64,000 nt of DNA from Squalus acanthias (lineage: Eukaryota). Below the pieces are notes generated by a model. The model did no database searches, was not told the origin of the DNA, and saw nothing but the letters and a program-made list of their open reading frames with translations. The stretch is from positions 122,142,001-122,206,000 of the forward strand of contig CM059431.1 in assembly GCA_030390025.1 (NCBI GenBank), in the 5' to 3' direction. The position numbers were made by a program, and so were the translations under genes. This document shows positions 1-57,937 of the stretch, one piece after another. Every line of letters starts with the position of its first letter. Within the stretch, counting starts at the first letter, position 1.

Positions 1-1
1 A

Positions 2-2829
2 AGGGCCTCCCCGAAGTTCTCGGATGAGGCGCTGGGTATCCTGGTTAAGGGGGCGAGAGCTAGCAGGGAGGTGCTCTTCCCCTCAACTGGGAGGAAGAGG
101 CCTCCCAAAGAAACCAAGGGCAGAATTTTCATTGACCCTTGGAGGCGGGTTTGGAGGCGTGTGGGGTGGGAAAATAGCAGATTCGGGGGTCCCGAACCCA
201 TCCCGCCCCCAACTCGCCTCCATGCCAGTTTCGCTGGAGGCGGGTACCCGACCTGTGCTGGGAGCCACCTCCCCGAGGCGGGAAGGGGATTAGTGACGAT
301 TAACTGCCTGTTAACAGGTAGTAAACAGGCAGTTTGTTGCCTAATCCCTATTTTTAGCCCTGAAGTGTGGGCTACCCGACGGCTCCAAACAACGCCGTTT
401 TAGCAAGGCGGACCGTGGGTCTGCAGGGGTTGGAGGGGTCGATATGTCCGGTGGGCAGGTGAGTGATGGGTGCATGTGTGCAGAGGTAAGTGTGCAAGGT
501 AAGTGTAAAGTGTGGAAAAAAGTTTTACTTACCTTAACTTCCTCCTGCAGGTGTCAGCCCTTCAGGACTCGGGAGTCAGAAATCTCACCGGCACAGAAAG
601 CAGAATGGCCGTGGAGCTGTCAAAAACTGTAGCCTCTGTTTTTTGTTCTGCAGAGATCTCTAAATCAGCCTGAGAGGAAGGAATTAACTTAGAGGACAGA
701 TTGTCAGTGTTTGACAGCTTCAAGGAGCTGTCAAACGCTGATATTTCATCTATCAAAAGCTCTTGACAGATGAAATGTCAATCTGTGAGGTCACCTGTTG
801 CCGGGTGGCCCTTAATTGGCCTGCTGAGCCCGCTGGGCAGGCTCAACAAGGTCAATCAAGGAAAAACCGAGTGGGTTGGCCACAACTCGATGGAGGTGGG
901 ACTACAACCCCAAAAGTGGGAGTCCCGCCTCCTGCTTGCCTCCATTGATAAAATCCAGCCCCAAGACTGTGTGGGTCCAGCTGGCAAGGGATATAACCTC
1001 CAGATCTGTGTGCAGCAGGATATGGCTGCAGTGCTGTAAAAGGTTCAATGACCTTGTAAGATCAGGCAATGTGAGTATATCTTCAGCTTGACCCTCCTTC
1101 TGCTCCCCTTCTCCTCTCATCACCAGCACTCTGCATTATCAACCTCCTCCTACACATCCCACTTTACCCTTACAACCCTTGCACCCTTCACCATCCCTCT
1201 CACTCTATGAACCCAATCACTTCACTATTCGACTATACTGCCCTCACAATCCCTTTCAAATTTATGCAATGATAAAATGATAACGCACAGGGAGGGCCCT
1301 TGGACATGGAACCTCACTCCATCTTTGTCTCCTTCTAAGCATCTATGCTCTGGACTCTCTACACTCACTCCATCATTCTCACTCCAACTCCACTTGTCTC
1401 CCTCACTGCAGGAAAAGAGAGCCCACAATAGAAGCAAATGGGTGAAGACAGGAGGAGGACCACCTTCCCTCACCCTTCTCACCCAGGCTGAAGTGGCGGC
1501 CCTGGACATCGCTGGCGCAGAGGTGGAGGTGAAAGTGGGGGACAGACAGATGGGCGATGCAGACCAAGCTGGTGACAGAATAGTTTTGCATCTCTCTCAT
1601 TTACACTGCTTGAGTGACTGAAATGGCTGCTGGTGTACATTATTAGAATGCCACTTGAGCATCTGCACTATTGCATCTGCATGCCACACTTCCGTCAAAT
1701 GTCTAACCCATGCCTTTACTCCCCCACAGGACCATGCACAGAGCACCCGCCTCCCACTGTCGACGAGGAAGAGGCTGAGCAGCAAGACTCCTCAGAGGAA
1801 ACTGCAACCTCTGAGGATGCAGTGTCAGCAGATGTAAGCGCACCCAGCACCAGCGCAGATACGCACACCTCGGTGGGACCATTGAGACAATGTTGTCACC
1901 GTGTGTATCACATCTCACAGGTGAGCATCAGCAGGTGGTGGAGACAGGGACAGCAGTGGAGAGTCCTCATCGGAGGTCGCAGGACTCTCCTAGCTCTGAT
2001 CCGCTGCATGTGGACCCTGTGCCTCTGGGTCAGAAAGAGAGCAGTGCTGGAACTCCAGGAGCAAGTGCAGGAGTCTCTGGCAGGTTTTGTCTCCAGGGTC
2101 ACTGTGAGTGTAGAGAGGATGGAGGAGTCCAGCTCTAACATGAGCAGTGCCTTTGTGGGGGCAATGGCGCATGAACGCACCACCACGGAAAGGATGGCAA
2201 CCTCCGTGGGAAGGATGGCAACCTCCGTGGTAACGATAGCTTCCTTTCTGGAAAGGGTGTTTACGGTAGAGGAGAGGATGGCTACAGCCATGGAGGACCT
2301 AAGTCGCCAGAGTCTGGAAAACATGGTGAATGTTCAGAATAGACTGACATCTCTGAAGGAGCGATGGGCAGCTATTGAGCAGAGAAACCAGAGCTTCATG
2401 GAAGTCCTTTTGAGGAGGACTGCCAGTGCAGATACGGGTCCCCATGGCCCCCCTGATGTGCAGCAAGGTGCTCTCAAGCCACTTGCAAATGCTGAGGTGG
2501 AGCTGACCCATGAGAGGGAAGTTGGTGGCAGAGAACAAGGAAGAGGGGGCTCCTCTCCAAGCGCTCACACTTCCATGCCTCTGCGTAGCCCTCGGTCAGA
2601 GCCCCACCTGAGTCTGCACCCAACTGAGATGGGCGTCTCAGCCCCTGCACTGCTGCAGGATGAGCAGACGTTTAGCGAGCCCTCACAGGCTCGGAAACCC
2701 AGAGGACGCCTGCCAAAGGTGTCGAAGCAGGAGCAGCATGAAAGTGAGCAAGTGGCCTCCACTTCTGCTGAAGCCACAGGGGGATCACCACGTAGGAGCT
2801 CGCGTAAGAAAAAAATAAAGTACAATTAG
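2..2829 (+). pseudogene. Harbinger Myb/SANT-like DNA-binding gene, 3 exons: 2-117+965-1070 (split by MITE), 1412-1571, 1730-2829
   Basis: Removing the MITE restores RASPKFSDEALGILVKG...RPPKETK/TVWVQLARDITSRSVCSRIWLQCCKRFNDLVRSGN. GTGAGT donor at 1071, CTGCAG acceptor ending 1411. Exon 2 is EKRAHNRSKWVKTGGGPP..., GT at 1572, CCACAG acceptor ending 1729, and phases join. Exon 3 has ERMATSV repeats and a basic tail (RRSSRKKKIK). Confidence 0.88.
118..961. mobile_element. Harbinger MITE, 844 bp
   Basis: TIRs GGGCAGAATTTT / AAAATCCAGCCC, CAA TSD (115-117, 962-964). Homologous along its length to 57137-57937. Confidence 0.93.
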
Positions 2830-3086
2830 TCACACGGGTAGGCACTTGGGTGATTGTTTCTGTTTATTGATGAAGTGCCATCCCTGTGTGAATGTATTAA
2901 AATGAGGTGATGGCAAACTGTGGGTGTGATGGCATCTGTTATTTTGGCTTAGGCCGCTCCACATTGCGGGCTCTGCGACAATTGCGTGGTCAGGTTGGTG
3001 GTCAGAGTGAAAGGAGGCCAGAGAGTCATGTCCATTGTCTATCATGTGTTAAGAAGGAGCCAAGCACATGTGCCATAATGGGCAAC

Positions 3087-4302
3087 CTATGAAAATCTGG
3101 CCAGGATTAATGCATTCCTTGCATCACGGGCAGCCATGTGCTCGCGTGCTGCCGCTGCTGCTGGTAGATGCGCCGCCGCTCGGTCCTCCTCCTCCTCCTC
3201 TTCCTCCTCATCTGAGGAGGCTATGTACTGAGTCACTTGCTCATCAGGAAGCTGCAAGCCACGACGCTGTGCGATGTTGTGCAGTGCACAGCAGACCACA
3301 ACCATTCTGGAGACCCTGGCTGCTGAGTGCTGCAAGGCTCCACCTGATCTGTCAAGGCATCGGAATCTCATCTTCAGCGAGCCAATGGTTTGTTCAATGA
3401 TGGACCTTGTCGAAATGTGGCTGGCGTTGTAGCGCTCCTCAGCCTCATTAGCTGGCCTCCTGATCGGCGTCATTAGCCACTTTTTAGGGGATAGTCCTTG
3501 TCTCCAAAGAGCCATCCGTTAAGTTGGTTTGGCGGATTGAAGAGCGGAGGAACACTAGACTGCCGCAGGATGAACGAGTCATGGCAACTACCACAGAACT
3601 TGGCGCAAACATGCAAAATCTCCTTCTTGTGGTTACACACCAGCTGTACCTTGAGGGGGTGGAAGCCCTTGCGGTTGACAAAGATAGCTGGGTTGTGATG
3701 GGGTGCCCTAAGGACCACATGTGTGCAGTCTTTGAAGCCCTGCACCATTGGCAAGCCTGCCATATTTGCAAAGCCAACCGAACGCACGGTTACACTTGCT
3801 TGATCCCTTGAGAAGTGGATGTAATTTTGCGCCTTTGCGAAAAGGGCATCGGTAACCTGCGTGATGCAACTGTGGGCGGCCAACTGGGAGATGCCGTTGA
3901 TGTCTGCTGATGATCCCTGGAAGGAGCCTGAGGCAAAAAAATTGAGTGCGGTGGTGACTTTGACAGCCACTGGTAAGAGGTGTCCACCCGCTCCTCTAGG
4001 CTCCAGGTGTTGGTGCAGCATTGCGCAGATGTCTCCGACAACCTCTCGCGAAACTCTCAGCCTCCTTTGGCACTGCTGCTCACTCATGTTGAAGTAGATC
4101 ATCCTCTGTCTGTAAACCCTGGAGGGGGGTCTCTCCTGCGGCGACGTGCTTCCATGCGCTGGCGCCTTCTGCCCTGTGCAGCATCAGGTGGGTGAGCAGG
4201 AGGTTGGCGCTCCTGCTGCTGAGCTGCCTGGTTCTGCTGCTGCTGTGGCTGTTCCTCATCCGAATCTGAGGTCCATGATGAAAGGAAATAAATGGTTCCC
4301 AT
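3087..4302 (-). pseudogene. Harbinger DDE transposase (HARBI1-like), two frameshifts
   Basis: Motifs across ORFs 4099-4374, 3473-4102 and 3087-3515: [60 protein letters not shown]...IIEQTIGSLKMRFRCLD, CCALHN, acidic tail. Frame breaks near 4130 and 3485. Confidence 0.93.
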
Positions 4303-4820
4303 GCTGCTGGCAGATACCTCCGTTGGGGAAGCGCTCAGTCCAAGCAGGGAGAGGGTTTTCCAAGGAGGTCCCACAGTTGAGAGATAGAAGCTGCAGCACC
4401 TCCGACTTTGGTAGGCCTGCTAAAAGTGCTGAAAGACCTTTGGAACAAAAGTTCTGCCACCTGCAACTGCTCCCTGATGAAAGCTCCATTTTAATGGTGG
4501 AGCTGCAGCTGTGAGGAGGCCACCCACTTGTCAACCCACCAGGATTTGCTGGCGTGGTTCAGGAGGGCCATGCAACAAGCTGAAAATGTGGTAAAATAAC
4601 AAAGGCCTGGCAAAATAGATGCCCTTAACCACTTTTTAAGGGTCTTAACTGCCTCTCCTGACTGATGGAGGTGGGACCGAATCGCACCCATGAAACCCGC
4701 CTCCGGCAAAATTGCGCGGAGGCGGGCTGGAGGCGGGTTCCGAACCCGCCCTCACTTTTTGCGATTTTCCCAACTGTCCCGCCTCCAAACCCGACTCCTC
4801 GGGGCTGGGAAATCGCCCCC

Positions 4821-5016
4821 TCAGTGTTTGCAGCACCTCAAATGACAAAAGAAAGTTGGCTATGGTCCCTTTAAGAAAACCTGCTGATAACGCATCATGA
4901 ATGACGTCACCAGACCCGCTTCCTCTAGTTGGACCGGGAAACCTGCTGGGCGGACTTAACAAGCCCCATCAACGTAATTCATTTTCCAGAGTGGGATGGT
5001 AATGAAAATCCCGGCC
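4821..5016. mobile_element. Right end of another Harbinger-type element (possible host of the 1-4820 element)
   Basis: Ends in TIR-like AAAATCCCGGCC at 5016, the same terminal pattern as other elements in the window. Confidence 0.55.
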
Positions 5017-33654: not shown

Positions 33655-35684
33655 GGGCTAAAAATTCGGGTGCTTTGCGTCATCCGTTACCGTCAAAATG
33701 TAGCGAAAAGATGATGGCCGCCGCTCTTTCGGAAGTCCGGCCGTGTTGCCGATAAGAGTGATGGCCCTGCAAATTTAAATTTGGGAGAGTTAACGTCATT
33801 CAGCATGCAACACCGACTTAATATCACCTCAGCTAACTTGGACAGACAATATCCGTGAAGAGAGAAACAGAGTTGCTGTCTCAGGTTGAGGTGCTGTCTG
33901 ACCTGTTGAGTATTTCCAGCATTTTAAGCTTTTATTTCAGATTTACAGCATTCACTTGCAGAGGGAAGAGGAAGACACAGAAGAGAAGGAAACAGAAGAG
34001 GAGGAAGCAGAAGAGGAAGAAGCAGAAGAGAAGGAACCAGAAGAGGAAGACACTGAAGAGGTGGAAGGAGATGAAGAGGAAGCAGAAGGAAGGATGCAAC
34101 CCAGACAGCCCCTTTCTGGCATATTCGGGATGGAATCATTCGCCTGTGGTACCAGTGACCACAACCCTAATTCCACTTTCAACATTAGTCCCACACCTTA
34201 CCTTCCCTCTGTTACTGACCATCACAGCATTCTCTTGGCCACATTGCTGAAATAAAAGCCGCCACAAAGCAAACTGTCCAATCCAACTTTATACATCTAT
34301 TCATCCAATATGACATAAAAAAATCAACTCATCACCCGTATGCATTCCCTTCGTGACTGTCTTGTGTGTGTTTTGCCTATCCTACTAATGTCAAGCAGTG
34401 CTACCCTAGTGGCTGCAGCATGGCTGGAGGAAGGGTGCTGACTTTCAGTGGGGGACACTGCAGATAGCCTTGCTGGTTGAGCTTGATGAGCTGGTGGCTG
34501 GGAGTGTCAAATCAAGTGACAGTGTTAGTTGCTTCTTCTTCTTCTTCTTCTTCTTCTTCTTCTTCTTCACTTTCCTCTCCCTCTCTTTGATCACCCACTG
34601 GCTGAGCAGGCTGCATTTCTTGGGTGTGTGAAATGAGGAAGGCATAAGGGTGGAGTTATGGAGAGGGGAGGGCGGGAAAACAGGAGGTACATGTGAGAAG
34701 GAGGATAATGTACAGGGATACCAGCATCTTGTATCCTTTCAGCCCTGCCGCTGGCCAAGGGCTCAGCATTGCCCCTGCTAAGAATGGCCAGCACCATCTC
34801 CTCCAAGGGGTTGAGGTGAATCTAGGAATGGGAGGTGTGCCTCGTATTTGGTACAGATTGTTGGTTGGTGAGTGATTGGCGGGGGTAGGAGTCATGCATT
34901 GAGAAGTGTGTGAGGCTAGTAATGCAGTTGGTAGGAGATGGCTTTTGAAGATGCATTCACTGACCTTGACCACTGGTTAGAGGTCATGAAGCTTCTTGGG
35001 GCACTGGAGCCTGGTGGTGGGGCGACACTGCTGGCAGTGACGGCCTCAGTGATGTGGTCCCACATTGTTCTTTCTGGAGAGCCACCAGGCCCCTGTGTGT
35101 AGAGGACCTCTCTTGCAGTGTTGACCCCCTGCACAAAGCTGGAGTGCTGCATGCGAGACCCTAGGTGCCCCTTCCCTGGCTTGCTGAGTCGTTTGTGTTT
35201 GTGTGGAAGCACTTTTCCCATTTTTTGACTTGCAGAAGGGAATTCAGCTTTAAGAGCTGAAGACTCCCATTTGGTAATGTATTTTCAAATGTTATTTTTT
35301 TTTGTAAAAGGCAGTACAGCTGTAAGGGCTGATAACTGCAATTTTTTGCTTCATTTTTATTTTGATAAGTTCAGAAAGCATTGCCCTTTTAAGCAAACGA
35401 CAATGCATTGCCCTTCTAATATCCCACAGTGCCTGGTGAACTCATAGCCTCGCTTCCAGAGGCTGTTGGAAGATGCAACGCCGCTTCTGGACACCACATT
35501 TGGCACTGATGCCAGGAGTAACGCCACCAGGAGGGCGTTACACGGTGAGTTTAGCACTGGGCTAAAAATATTTAGTCCCCAGCGCAAATTTTTCTCTCCT
35601 ACCAGCGCGACCATTTTCAGCGGCCGTTAACCCGAGGCCGCGGTGACATCGGCAACTTTTGTGTTGCAGTCCAATTTCTAGGCC
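33655..35684 (-). mobile_element. Internally deleted Harbinger element, same family as 15845-18001
   Basis: Ends GGGCTAAAAATTCGG / CCAATTTCTAGGCC. 33958-35220 aligns in reverse with about 16260-17415. Contains (TTC)n near 34532-34568. Confidence 0.82.
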
Positions 35685-35792
35685 TCAGACTTTAGTATCA
35701 TGCCTAACATACTATCACCCCATCTCCAATCTCCTTTTTCACTCCAGAGTCCTTGAACATATTGTTGTCTGCATCCATCCGTCACTCCCACA

Positions 35793-36043
35793 ATCTGTCT
35801 GTCTCTCTGTCTCTCTCTGTGTCTCTCTCTCTTTCTCTGTCTCTCTCTCTGTCGCTGTCTCTCTCTGTCTCTCTATCGCTGTCTCTCTCTGTCTCTCTGC
35901 CTCTCTGTCTCTCTCCCTCTCTGTCTCTGTCTGTCTCTGTCTCTGCCTCTGTCTCTCCATCTCTATGTCTCTCTGTATCTCTCTGTCTCTCTCTCTGTCT
36001 CTGTCTCTCTCTCTCTGTCTCTCTCTCTCTCTCTGGCTCTCAC

Positions 36044-36082
<39 letters not shown>

Positions 36083-36439
36083 TTCCCTCTCTGGTTCTCT
36101 CTCTCTCTCTCTGGCTCTCTCTCTCTCTCTGGCTCTCTCTATCTCTCTCTATATAGCTCTCTGTCTCTGTCTCTCTCTCTCTCTGTTTCTCTGTCTCTCT
36201 CCCTGCCTCTCTCTCTCTTTCTCTGTCTCTCTATCTTTCTGTCCCTCTCTCTCTGTCTCTCTCTCTCTGTCTCTCTCTCTCACACTCTCTCTCTCAAACT
36301 CTCTCTCTCACACTCTCTTTCTCACACTCTCTCTCTCTCTCTCTCTCATACTCTCTCTCTCTCTCACACTCTCTCTCTCTCACACTCTCTCTCTCCGTCT
36401 CTCTCTGTCTCTCACTGTCTCTCTCTCTGTCTTGCTCTC

Positions 36440-55215: not shown

Positions 55216-57136
55216 TATATCCTAATATAGACTGGGATAGTAATAGTGTAAAGGGCAGAGAGGGAGAAGAATTTCTGAAGTGTGTTCAGGAGAACTATCT
55301 TGATCAGTACGTTTCCAGCTCAATGAGGAAGGAGGCATTGCTGGATCTGGTTCTGGGGAATGAGGTGGGTCAAGTAGAGCAAGAGTCAGTCGGTAACCTT
55401 TAGGGAACAGTGATCACAGTGTCATAAGGTGTAGAGTAGCTATGGAAAAGGACAGGGAAAATCTAGAGTAAAAATACTTAAGTGGAGGAAAGCCAATTTC
55501 AGTAGGTTGAGAATGGATCTGGCCCGGGTAAATTGGAATCAAAGCTTGGCAAGCAAAGCTGTAATCGAACAATGGGCTGCCTTTAAAGAGGAGGTGGTTC
55601 AGGTACAGTCGAGCTACATTCCCACGAAGGGGAAAGGTAGGGCAACCAAAGCCAGAGCTCCCTGGATGACGAAAGAGATAGAGAGTAAGATGAAGCAGAA
55701 AAGGGGGGCTTATGACAGATGTCAGGTTGAGAATACAAGTGAGAACCAGGCTGAATATAAAAAGTTCAGAGGGGAAGTGAAAAAGGAAATAAGAGGGGCA
55801 AAGAGAGAGTATAAGAATAGATTGGCAGCTAGCATAAAAGGGAATTTAAAAGTCTTCTATAGGCATATAAATAGTAAACGGGTAGTAAGAGGAGGGGTGG
55901 GGCCGATTAGGGACCAAAATGGAGACCTACGCATGGAGGCAGAGGGCATGGCTGAGGTACTAAATGAATACTTTGCATCTGTCTTTACCAAGGAAGAAGA
56001 TGCTGCCAAAGTCATAGTGAAAGCGGAGGTAGTTGGGATACTAGATGGAATAAAAATTGATAAGGAGGAGGTACTAGGAAGGCTGGCTGTACTTAAAGTA
56101 GATAAGTTACCAGGACCGGGTGGGATGCATCATCGGATGCTGAGGGAAGTAAAAGTGGAAATTGCGGAGGAACTGGCCATAATCTTCCAATTCTCCTTAG
56201 ATATGGGGGTGGTGCCAGAGGACTGGAGAATTGCAAATGTTACACCCTTGTTCAAAACAGGGTGTAAAGGTAAACCCAGCAACTAGAGACCAGTCAGTTT
56301 AACCATGGTAGTGGGGAAGCTTTAGAAACGATAATCTGGGACAAAATTAACAGTGAATTGGACAAGTGTGGATTAATTAAGGAAAGCCAGCATGGATTTG
56401 TTAAAGGTAAATTGTGTTTAACTAGCTTGATTGAGTTTTTTGATGAGGTGACATAGAGGGTTGATGAGGGCAATGCGGTTGATGTGGTGTCACATGGACT
56501 TCCAAAAGACGTTTGATGAAGTGCCACATATTAGGCTTGCCAGCAAAGTTGAAGCCCATGGAATAAAAGGGACAGTGGCAGCATGGATACAAAATTGGCT
56601 AAGTGACAGGAAACAGAGAGTAGTGGTGAACAGTTGTTTTTCAGACTGGAAGAAGGTATATAGTGGTGTTCACCCGGGGTTGGTACTAGGACCACTGTTT
56701 TTCTTGATGTATATTAATGACTCAGACTTGGGTGTACAGGGTACAATTTCAAAATTTGCAGATGACACAAAACTTGGAAGTATAGTGAACAGTGAGGAGG
56801 ATAGTGATAGACTTCAAGAAGACATAGACAGGCTGGTGGAATGGGCGGACACGTGGCAGATGAAATTTAATGCAGAAAAGTGCGAAGTGTTACATTTTGT
56901 TAGGAAGAACGAGGAGAGGCAATATAAACTAAAGGGTACAATTCTAAAGGGGGTGCATGAACAGAGAACCGGCACGGACTCAATGGGCCAAATGGCCTCC
57001 TTCTGTGGCGTTATGACTTTATGACTCTATGAGAGACCTGGGGGTATATGTGCACAAATCGTTGAAGGTGTCAGGGCAGTTTGAGAAAGTGGTTAAAAAA
57101 GCATATGGGATCCTGGGCTTCATAAATAGAGGCATA

Positions 57137-57937
57137 GGGTGCGATCTTGCCAGCCCTGGGGAGGTGGGTATGGAGGCGGGTCTGCCGGGAAAATGGCAGA
57201 ATTTGGGGGCGGGTGCCCAACCCGCCCCCAACCCGCCTCCATGCCGTCTTGCCAGGAGGCGGGTAGCCGTCCCGTGCCGGGTCCCGTCTCCTTGGAGGCG
57301 GGAAGGGATTACAGCCACTTAACTGCCTGTTAACAGGCAGAAAATAGGCTTATCACCATTTTGCCCTCACAAGTGTGGGCTTCCCGAAGGCTCCGAACCT
57401 CGCCAGGGTCACCGAGGCAAGTAGTGGGTCTGTGGGGGTCAGAGGGGTGCAAAAGTGCGCTGTGAAGGTAAGTGATGGGTGCAAGTGTGGAGAGGTGAGT
57501 AACTGAGGTAAGTGGAAAGTGTTAGAAAAAGTGTACTTACCTTTGTTTCTTCCTGCAGGCTTCAGTCGGTGTGTATGCGGAGAGTCTCACACCTCCGTGG
57601 TAGAGATGACAGATGGCCGTTGCATTCTCCAATGCAAAAGAAAGAGGTTTGATGAGGTCTTGAATTCAAGAACTCATCAAACTACAGAGAATGTCACTGT
57701 TTGACAGCTTCACAGAGCTGTCAAACGATGACAATTCATCTGTCAAACATTTTTGACAGATGAAACGTCATGCGTTGACGTTCTCTGCAACCGGCTTTCC
57801 CTTAATTGGCCTGTGGGCTTAACAAGGTCAATCAAGGGAAAATAGAGTGGGTTGGCCAGAAGTTGATGGAAGCGGTTCTGAAACCCGACAAGTGGGAGTC
57901 CCACCTTCAAAAGCTCCCCATTGGCAAAATCACCCCC
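57137..57937. mobile_element. Harbinger MITE, same family as 118-961
   Basis: GGGTGCGATCTT / AAAATCACCCCC ends, ATA/TTA flanks. Removal restores CR1 AATAGAGGCATAGAGTACAAAAGC. Confidence 0.92.

What the first reader, a model, noticed from the sequence alone, without database searches (positions are those of the whole stretch)
456..550. MITE family carrying a conserved cassette of three 5' splice sites, a U1-like antisense motif and an acceptor
Seen: copy 1 has CAGGTGAGT (456), GAGGTAAGT (483), AAGGTAAGT (496), ACTTACCTT (527) and TTCCTCCTGCAG (ends 550). The visibly diverged copy 2 has AAGGTAAGT (57465), GAGGTGAGT (57492), GAGGTAAGT (57505), TACTTACCTT (57534) and TTTCTTCCTGCAG (ends 57558). 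The motifs persist while the spacers differ. Known: AG/GTRAGT is the U1-pairing consensus, and ACUUACCU is the pairing sequence at the U1 snRNA 5' end. Inference: this non-coding DNA transposon appears to retain U1 sites on both strands. Possible roles are a 52-92 nt mini-intron, suppression of premature polyadenylation in host introns, or a hairpin that masks its own donors.
Basis: partly seen in the sequence, partly recalled or inferred. Interest (0 to 1): 0.8.

Follow-up and report, generated by a model that had tools for sequence, protein, structure and literature searches.

The report
Harbinger-type MITE carrying a mini-intron
An abundant, non-coding "cut-and-paste" transposon family in this vertebrate-like genome carries a small, complete intron-like signal set whose key bases stayed intact as the family diversified, but the data at hand show no splicing of it.

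Summary
All ten motifs sit at the stated coordinates, and 8 of the window's 13 AGGTRAGT matches lie in the two copies (4.4 expected by chance). The carrier is an ~845-bp non-autonomous PIF/Harbinger-type element with GGGC…GCCC inverted ends and 3-bp A/T-rich target duplications. An 18-mer from it occurs 14,378 times in the genome, and there are at least six subfamilies.

The cassette reads as a complete U2-type mini-intron. It has three tandem consensus donors, and the "U1-like" TACTTAC lies 19-20 nt before the acceptor, where a branch point belongs. A pyrimidine tract and CAG|G follow, then a Kozak-like ATG.

I analysed 52 sampled copies. Splice-constrained positions changed on lineage branches at 5 of 31 sites. 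The degenerate -3/+3/n positions changed at 7 of 9 sites (p=0.001), and other non-CpG columns at 164 of 321 (p=2e-4).

Three results weaken a functional reading:
- An adjacent non-splice spacer is just as invariant.
- One subfamily lost donor 3 and still amplified.
- Sequencing-run contigs show only the unspliced form.

Two related autonomous Harbinger families lack the cassette, so its origin is unresolved. The best reading is a retained 5'-UTR-type mini-intron, possibly still kept splice-competent. A U1 or telescripting role remains untested.

The parts
115..117 (.). Target-site duplication CAA of copy 1. The second copy is at 962-964.
   Evidence: Identical 3-nt flanks occur in 21 of the 28 young-subfamily copies that could be scored.
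118..961 (+). Copy 1 of the non-autonomous PIF/Harbinger-type element (young subfamily 'sf1', 844 bp). Ends are GGGCAGAATTTTC...GATAAAATCCAGCCC.
   Evidence: One search finds genome copies 95-97% identical. One search gives the ends and TSDs. One search shows the sf1 consensus matching window 118-961 at 97.6%.
118..450 (+). 5' subterminal region with GGAGGCGGG repeats and the palindrome TTAACTGCCTGTTAACAGG. It is homologous to the transposase-side end of autonomous Harbingers.
   Evidence: the sf2 consensus positions 1-128 match window 4820-4695 at 81%; collinear blocks with the L061 autonomous element.
456..464 (+). Donor 1, CAG|GTGAGT. The intron to position 550 would be 92 nt.
   Evidence: AGGTRAGT is intact in 48 of 52 sampled copies.
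483..491 (+). Donor 2, GAG|GTAAGT. The intron to position 550 would be 65 nt.
   Evidence: Intact in 45 of 52 sampled copies.
496..504 (+). Donor 3, AAG|GTAAGT. The intron to position 550 would be 52 nt. It also forms the 5' arm of a hairpin with 527-535.
   Evidence: Intact in 41 of 52 sampled copies and lost in the 'sf5' subfamily.
526..535 (+). TACTTACCTT. It matches a branch-point consensus (CTTAC, with the A at 531, 19 nt before the AG). It is also the reverse complement of donor 3, which makes it a consensus donor on the minus strand.
   Evidence: Read directly from the sequence. The hairpin appears in the minimum-free-energy folds of both copies. A yTnAy match is kept in 46 of 52 copies.
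536..550 (+). Pyrimidine tract and acceptor, AACTTCCTCCTGCAG|G.
   Evidence: The AG is kept in 50 of 52 copies and CAG in 49 of 52.
605..607 (+). ATG in the context AGAATGGCC, conserved as AGAATGGCY across subfamilies. It opens only a short ORF that is not conserved.
57137..57937 (+). Copy 2 (older subfamily 'sf2', 801 bp), with TSD ATA/TTA. It is inserted in the tail of a LINE reverse-transcriptase ORF and carries its cassette at 57465-57558.
1..114 (+). Part of the first coding exon of a Myb/SANT-like gene belonging to an autonomous-type Harbinger ('H-win') into which copy 1 inserted. The exon continues at 965-1073 and ends at AAT|GTGAGT.
   Evidence: translation ...PKFSDEALGILVKGAR...CKRFNDLVRSGN. 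I recognised the Myb-like nature by eye and did not scan it against Pfam.
3087..4183 (-). Frameshifted DDE_Tnp_4 transposase of H-win, split into two ORFs (3473-4183 and 3087-3518).
   Evidence: PF13359 with E=1.8e-14 and 9e-14.
4695..4820 (-). Transposase-side terminus of H-win. It is the closest autonomous relative of the MITE's 5' end found here, and no cassette follows it.
   Evidence: Three further family members also lack the cassette.

Best explanation
The cassette is a complete U2-type mini-intron embedded in a ~845-bp non-autonomous PIF/Harbinger-type transposon. Reading the plus strand, the parts come in this order. A GC-rich subterminal region is shared with the transposase-side ends of autonomous Harbingers. 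An 'exon 1' follows, then three tandem consensus 5' splice sites (AG|GTRAGT). A branch-point match (TACTTAC) lies 19-20 nt before the acceptor, followed by a pyrimidine tract and CAG|G. A Kozak-like ATG lies 53 nt further on. The most likely origin is the 5'-UTR exon/intron junction of a transposon gene, or of a captured gene, carried along when the short element arose. If the element is transcribed in sense, U1 would pair with donor 1, with donors 2 and 3 as close alternatives. U2 would pair with TACTTAC, and 92 (or 65) nt would be removed. The 52-nt version is probably too short to splice. What is shown: the anatomy, the family membership, and a lineage-level conservation pattern that matches the 5' splice-site consensus. 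What is inferred: the origin as a parental intron, and any actual splicing.
For: Anatomy and order of signals. Family: inverted ends and 3-bp TSDs, 14,378 exact genome matches of a 3' 18-mer and 15,437 of a 5' 19-mer with 0 control matches for either, and no coding remnant. Kinship to two-gene Harbingers: the MITE 5' end is 81% identical over 128 nt to the terminus of a DDE_Tnp_4 + Myb-like element in the window. It is about 73% identical to a second family, L061. L061 has a GTGAGT donor about 370 nt from its terminus. A deletion derivative of that family, L118, keeps this donor and shares about 200 nt of MITE-like 3' end. This shows how such donors end up in short elements. Conservation was measured on 52 analysable copies out of 60 sampled blind to the cassette. 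Internal-branch changes hit 5 of 31 consensus-critical positions. They hit 7 of 9 degenerate -3/+3/n positions (Fisher p=0.0011), 21 of 45 cassette spacer columns (p=0.007) and 164 of 321 other non-CpG columns (p=2e-4). Decay after insertion is ordinary: 0.77 against 1.07 terminal-branch changes per site (p=0.13).
Against: No junction from 458, 485 or 498 to 551 appears among the 15 joints listed for the four runs laid (31 more joints were not shown). Contigs cross the cassette unspliced: X1 record 6 covers 467-565 and X2 record 20 covers 439-605. The nature of these runs (RNA?) is only a guess. Neither sampled autonomous family contains the cassette, and shuffle tests find no similarity there. 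Among 45 paired 5'/3' landmarks, none spans the 3-6 kb expected of an autonomous element. The parent is therefore hypothetical. The D1-D2 spacer is as conserved as the motifs, with 3 of 18 sites variable and an invariant run AGTGATGGGTGCA. The constraint may therefore belong to a block rather than to splice signals. Taken as whole 9-mers, donors 1 and 2 fall only in the lowest 15% of windows, donor 3 at 46% and the antisense motif at 30%. One subfamily lost donor 3 and still amplified. The tree included the cassette columns, and the sample comes from a single contig.
Confidence: 0.5

Rival explanations
1. The cassette is a neutral fossil. It is a dead remnant of a parental or captured intron with no present role, and the apparent constraint comes from rate heterogeneity (a CpG-free, GT-rich block), limited divergence time and a small sample.
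For: The non-splice D1-D2 spacer is equally conserved, with 3 of 18 sites variable. Donor 3 was lost in one subfamily that still amplified. No spliced form was seen. Post-insertion decay of motif positions is not significantly slower than background. The cassette as a whole is only about 80% identical between the sf1 and sf2 consensuses, against 73% overall and 85-95% for other blocks.
Against: Within the same 9-mers, the degenerate positions vary (7 of 9) while the critical ones rarely do (5 of 31, p=0.0011). Block-wide slow mutation does not explain this contrast. The contrast with other non-CpG columns holds as well (p=2e-4).
Confidence: 0.25
2. The clustered U1 sites are kept because U1 binding itself helps the element or its host genes. 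Proposed routes are suppression of premature polyadenylation in host introns, transcript retention, or masking through the donor 3/antisense hairpin.
For: The conservation pattern matches the U1-pairing consensus at three tandem sites. The hairpin between donor 3 and the antisense motif forms in the predicted folds of both copies.
Against: No RNA, orientation or polyadenylation data could be obtained. The plus-strand folds are no more stable than shuffles (z = -0.93 and -0.61). By eye I saw no AATAAA-type signal in the element that would need suppressing. The presence of a matched branch point, pyrimidine tract and acceptor is explained more simply by an intron.
Confidence: 0.1
3. The splice likeness is incidental. 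AGGTRAGTG would be a repeated word (three direct copies and one inverted) that serves as a protein-binding or hairpin module in an element built largely of local palindromes.
For: The element contains many conserved palindromes, for example TGTTTGACAGCT...AGCTGTCAAACG and CATCTGTCAAAA...TTTTGACAGATG. These contain two of the three longest invariant runs. One palindrome, ATGGCTGCTGCAT/ATGCAGCAGCCAT, shows a change on both arms between subfamilies (by eye). Donor 3 and the antisense motif are exact complements.
Against: Donors 1 and 2 have no dedicated complementary partner. The positions free to vary are exactly those that are free in the splice consensus. Fold stability is not unusual on the plus strand. 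The word is absent from the subterminal regions, where Harbinger proteins are expected to bind (expectation recalled from knowledge; sequences).
Confidence: 0.15

Closest known systems
Tourist-like MITEs and other non-autonomous PIF/Harbinger (PHIS superfamily) elements
   Same: Short, non-coding and high in copy number. They have terminal inverted repeats and 3-bp A/T-rich target duplications, and their ends resemble those of two-gene (DDE_Tnp_4 transposase + Myb-like) autonomous elements. PMC4482050 (passages read) gives TWA as the PIF/Harbinger TSD and 3 bp as typical for the superfamily. PMC2836001 (abstract seen in the search listing only) states that two element-encoded proteins mobilise Tourist MITEs.
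   Different: At 801-845 bp this element is at or above the usual MITE size. Its TSDs are A/T-only but not strictly TWA (ATA/TAT are commonest), often in a C|NNN|G context. It also carries a conserved internal intron-like cassette.
Introners (transposons that create introns on insertion)
   Same: They are DNA-transposon-like repeats that bring splice signals with them. PMC9860276 and PMC12130899 were seen as abstracts in the search listing only.
   Different: As I recall, introners are spliced out whole, with splice sites at or next to their ends. Here the intron-like part is 92 of about 845 nt and lies internally, so splicing would not remove the element. Whether any copies lie in exons was not examined.
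Internal-deletion derivatives of autonomous DNA transposons that keep parental UTR or intron pieces
   Same: L118 in this genome is such a derivative of the L061 Harbinger family. It keeps exon 1 and its GTAAGT donor.
   Different: For the family studied here no parent with the cassette was found. The cassette has also stayed consensus-like through at least six subfamilies.

Membership tests
PIF/Harbinger (PHIS) non-autonomous element / MITE | Terminal inverted repeats | tested here: met
   Ends are GGGCAGAATTTTCATTGA...TCAATGGAGGCG-type, with GGGC...GCCC present across the 60 aligned copies.
PIF/Harbinger (PHIS) non-autonomous element / MITE | 3-bp target-site duplication, classically TWA | tested here: inconclusive
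   The 3-bp length is met: flanks are identical in 21 of 28 sf1 copies. The composition is A/T-only but mostly ATA/TAT/ATT/AAA rather than TWA. PMC4482050 (passages read) describes other 3-bp groups within the superfamily.
PIF/Harbinger (PHIS) non-autonomous element / MITE | Ends related to an autonomous element encoding a DDE_Tnp_4 transposase and a Myb-like protein | tested here: met
   81% identity over 128 nt to the terminus of the window's own Harbinger, which carries PF13359 with E=1.8e-14. About 73% identity to L061. The 3' end of about 200 nt is shared with L118.
PIF/Harbinger (PHIS) non-autonomous element / MITE | No coding capacity, small size, high copy number | tested here: met
   tblastn with the Myb-like exon 1 and the transposase N-terminus finds nothing. 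There are 14,378 and 15,437 exact landmark matches. The size of 801-845 bp is at the upper edge of what is usually called a MITE (size limit recalled).
U2-type spliceosomal intron | GT...AG with a consensus 5' splice site, a branch point 18-40 nt before the 3' splice site, and a pyrimidine tract | tested here: met
   Read directly from the sequence. Consensus definitions are recalled; no splice-site scoring program was available.
U2-type spliceosomal intron | Removal from RNA | tested here: inconclusive
   No donor-to-551 joint appears among the 15 listed joints in four runs, and unspliced contigs are present. The runs are only guessed to be RNA, and contigs drop rare forms.
Introner | Splice sites at the element's ends, so that the whole insertion is spliced out | tested here: not met
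   The donors lie 339-382 nt and the acceptor 433 nt inside an 844-nt element.
U1 snRNA gene or pseudogene | Match to the U1 covariance model | tested here: not met
   A permissive Rfam scan of window 100-980 returned only five weak miRNA-like matches far below their gathering scores, and no snRNA.

The most novel reading that the evidence does not exclude
Source copies of a non-autonomous DNA transposon are under selection to remain recognisable by the spliceosome, through a cluster of three consensus U1 sites plus a branch point and acceptor. Spliceosome engagement would then be a cis-acting advantage for a MITE's spread or survival, for example by making intronic insertions harmless or by keeping the locus in a permissive state. 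It would not be a mere fossil of a parental gene.
Probability: 0.2. Interest if true: 0.75.

Novelty: new variant of a known kind. Interest (0 to 1): 0.42.

Why it matters
Internal sequence of a non-autonomous transposon is normally free to drift, because only the parts needed for mobilisation are kept. Here an abundant vertebrate-type Harbinger MITE family shows a conservation pattern that tracks the 5' splice-site consensus base by base. This would give a testable case of a transposon family that carries and keeps spliceosome signals. With roughly 15,000 copies, such signals could also seed cryptic splice sites, alternative first exons or U1-dependent effects in many host genes. If RNA data show no use of these sites, the case becomes a clean example of how a parental intron fossil can mimic function.

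Tried and rejected
All family statistics therefore rest on sampled copies and pattern counts.

2. RNA evidence. The look-up of sequencing runs listed no holder on record as RNA. Four runs were laid: X1, X2 and X5 (guessed RNA) and X10 (probably DNA). No donor-to-acceptor joint was among the 15 shown, and 31 were not shown.

3. Search for the autonomous parent:
- One L061-type element was fetched from the top PF13359 hits.
- The window's own Harbinger (H-win) and three more members of its family were examined.
- A longer copy, L122, proved to be a MITE with a nested insertion of about 760 bp.
- Pairing of 100 5' landmarks with 73 3' landmarks on contig C1 gave 45 pairs. Of these, 36 lay at the normal 526-553 nt, 5 were shorter (136-500 nt) and 4 were longer (869, 1395, 1452 and 2719 nt). 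None fell in the 3-6 kb range.
- No element with the cassette upstream of a transposase was found.

4. Homology of the cassette to L061 or H-win was not significant in shuffle tests.

5. Local BLAST of the cassette against all fetched DNA found only family members plus one 25-nt match in L055.

6. Rfam returned nothing relevant.

7. Fold stability on the plus strand is not different from shuffles.

8. A putatively more distant copy, L123, turned out to be an sf5-like member.

9. The earlier-findings index returned nothing.

10. Three literature searches listed no description of a MITE with a conserved internal intron, or of this family. This is only what those term sets returned.

11. My first guesses were wrong and were dropped: a Tc1/mariner 'TA' TSD, and a minus-strand reading of the Myb-like flank.
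Full report
OBSERVATION. The 8-mer AGGTRAGT occurs 13 times in the 64-kb window on both strands. Shuffles give a mean of 4.36, and 0 of 100 shuffles reach 13. Eight of the 13 matches lie in the two copies. Between the two window copies, 43 of 48 motif positions are identical against 34 of 49 spacer positions (p=0.022). The whole elements are 70% identical. It does not hold for the 18-nt spacer between donors 1 and 2, which is 16/18 identical.

WHAT THE CARRIER IS. Copy 1 is window 118-961 and copy 2 is 57137-57937.
- A genome search with copy 1 returned 40 scored copies at 95-97% identity, out of at least 7,476 first-look candidates.
- A search with copy 2 returned 40 scored places. Near-full-length copies were 83-89% identical, out of at least 8,789 candidates.
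- The aligned copies share ends GGGC...GCCC, with inverted terminal repeats and GGAGGCGGG subterminal repeats on both sides.
- They are flanked by 3-bp duplications. Flanks are identical in 21 of the 28 young copies that could be scored. They are A/T-only (ATA/TAT commonest), and 15 of 28 lie in a C|NNN|G context.
- An 18-mer from the 3' part occurs 14,378 times in the genome and a 19-mer from the 5' part 15,437 times. Control matches are 0 for both.
- No coding remnant was detected.

The genome is very rich in two-gene Harbingers. PF13359 gave 63,885 first-look candidates.

One such element lies in the window itself. Copy 1 has inserted into the first coding exon of its Myb-like gene, at window 1-114 and 965-1073. 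A frameshifted DDE_Tnp_4 transposase lies at 3087-4183 on the minus strand. Its terminus at 4820 is 81% identical over 128 nt to the MITE's 5' end.

A second family, L061, matches the MITE's 5' end at about 73%. A deletion derivative of that family, L118, shares about 200 nt of the MITE's 3' end.

The element is thus a non-autonomous member of the PIF/Harbinger (PHIS) superfamily. Its 5' end corresponds to the transposase side and its 3' end to the Myb-like side. The classical TWA duplication is not strictly met. PMC4482050 (passages read) describes other 3-bp groups in the superfamily.

WHAT THE CASSETTE IS. On the plus strand the signals come in the order and spacing of an ordinary U2-type intron. 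The consensus definitions here are recalled, and no scoring program was available.
- There are three tandem AG|GTRAGT donors.
- TACTTAC follows, with its A 19-20 nt upstream of the acceptor, which is a yUnAy branch-point match.
- A pyrimidine tract and CAG|G come next.
- A conserved AGAATGGCY lies 53 nt downstream.

The intron would be 92, 65 or 52 nt, and the shortest is probably below the workable minimum. The 'U1-like antisense motif' therefore needs no special explanation. It is what a branch point followed by a pyrimidine tract looks like. It is also the exact complement of donor 3, with which it pairs in the predicted folds of both copies. Those plus-strand folds are no more stable than shuffles (z = -0.93 and -0.61). 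Rfam finds no snRNA or other family.

CONSERVATION ACROSS SUBFAMILIES. I took the first 60 genome places of the 3' 18-mer on contig C1. This choice is blind to the state of the cassette.

Eight copies were dropped because the cassette region was deleted, truncated, interrupted or from another family: L063, L064, L085, L086, L088, L090, L103 and L118. The remaining 52 fall into at least six subfamilies on a ladder-like tree.

I counted parsimony changes on internal branches, which reflect changes in source lineages:

| Class of position | Sites with at least one internal-branch change | Test against critical positions |
|---|---|---|
| Consensus-critical (-2, -1, +1, +2, +4 to +6 of the four 9-mers, plus CAG) | 5 of 31 | n/a |
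| Degenerate -3/+3/n positions | 7 of 9 | Fisher p=0.0011 |
| Spacer columns inside the cassette | 21 of 45 | p=0.007 |
| Other non-CpG columns | 164 of 321 | p=2e-4 |

Terminal-branch changes, which reflect decay after insertion, are ordinary: 0.77 against 1.07 per site (p=0.13). Individual copies are therefore not protected.

Results that cut against a splice-specific reading:
- The D1-D2 spacer is as conserved as the motifs, with 3 of 18 sites variable. The longest invariant run in the cassette, AGTGATGGGTGCA, spans it.
- Taken as whole 9-mers, donors 1 and 2 are only in the lowest 15% of windows, donor 3 at 46% and the antisense motif at 30%.
- Other blocks, all palindromes, are conserved better.
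- One subfamily replaced donor 3 by TTGGTGTGT and still amplified (the loose ends show the same).
- Among the 52 copies, the counts of intact signals are donor 1 48, donor 2 45, donor 3 41, antisense motif 41 and AG 50. All are intact together in 26.

Caveats: one contig was sampled, an exact-match anchor was required, the cassette columns were included in the tree, and parsimony was run on a FastTree topology.

RNA. No run is on record as RNA. I laid three small runs guessed to be RNA and one large run that is probably DNA. The 15 listed joints include no junction from any donor to 551, and 31 joints were not shown. Contigs cross the cassette unspliced: X1 covers 467-565 at depth about 1,090, and X2 covers 439-605 at depth about 658. 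This is weak evidence against efficient splicing and is not decisive.

ORIGIN. I looked for a parent carrying the cassette and did not find one.
- L061 has a GTGAGT donor about 370 nt from its terminus, and its derivative L118 keeps it. This shows that Harbinger deletion derivatives in this genome do inherit first-exon donors.
- The cassette itself has no significant similarity to L061 or to the window's Harbinger.
- Three further members of the latter family lack it.
- Of 45 paired 5'/3' landmarks on 34 Mb of C1, 36 are at the MITE spacing and none is at 3-6 kb.

The subfamilies are collinear through the variable middle. The short element therefore arose once and diversified as a short element.

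VERDICT. The family is a Harbinger-type MITE-like element. The cassette is best read as a retained, complete mini-intron of the 5'-UTR type, whose consensus-critical bases have been kept through the family's diversification.

Whether this reflects present use is open. It could be use by the spliceosome, by U1 alone, or as part of a larger conserved block. My estimates are:
- about 0.5 that it is an intron relic kept splice-competent;
- about 0.25 that it is a neutral fossil;
- about 0.15 that it is a non-splicing module;

I found no description of such a MITE in three literature searches. Introners (abstracts seen in the listing only) differ because, as I recall, they are spliced out whole. 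Interest is moderate. The conservation pattern is unusual for the interior of a non-autonomous transposon and is directly testable with RNA data from this species.

Noticed in passing
window 1-4820, continuing about 300 nt upstream of the window (L001:1101-1500): An autonomous-type two-gene Harbinger. Its Myb-like gene is on the plus strand, starts at ATGGCCAGC upstream of the window, and is interrupted by MITE copy 1. Its DDE_Tnp_4 transposase is on the minus strand and is split by a frameshift. The family gave 100,766 first-look candidates in the genome, some with open frames of 440-480 aa.
   Followed up: partly
window 57134-57136; loci L002, L003, L004, L014, L016, L028: The MITE has inserted repeatedly, in both orientations, at the same GGCATA|GAGTAC site in the tail of a LINE reverse-transcriptase ORF. 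This is seen in 6 of the 30 sf1 loci plus window copy 2, and points to a strong target preference (C|ATA|G).
   Followed up: partly
window 4838-5012: A solitary 3' end of a Harbinger-type element, 78% identical to L118 positions 350-485. It abuts the terminus of the window's autonomous Harbinger in inverted orientation.
   Followed up: no
window 604-790 and the aligned copies: The element's interior is a chain of local palindromes. Examples are ATGGCTGCTGCAT/ATGCAGCAGCCAT, TGTTTGACAGCT/AGCTGTCAAACG, CATCTGTCAAAA/TTTTGACAGATG and GAGCCCGC/GCGGGCTC. The last three are among the best-conserved parts. The first shows a change on both arms between subfamilies, judged by eye. Their role is unknown; protein binding is one possibility.
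   Followed up: no
L118 (G000:C1:28694579-28695086): A short deletion derivative of the L061 Harbinger family. It joins exon 1, its donor and about 50 nt of intron directly to the 3' region, and it ends in a MITE-like 3' terminus that includes the 18-mer landmark.
   Followed up: partly
L122:7698-9290: A MITE copy carrying a nested insertion of about 760 bp. Parts of the insert resemble L061 3290-3384.
   Followed up: partly
window 35701-36300 and 33950-34088: A long array of repeats with an 8-14-nt period, in 58 overlapping registers. There is also a 15-nt GAAGAG-rich tandem repeat with seven copies. If it is coding, it would encode an acidic Glu-rich stretch.
   Followed up: no
runs X1-X15: Parts of the element are held by runs labelled with six coded organisms (A-F). 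The family, or close relatives of it, may therefore occur in several related species. This was not examined further.
   Followed up: no
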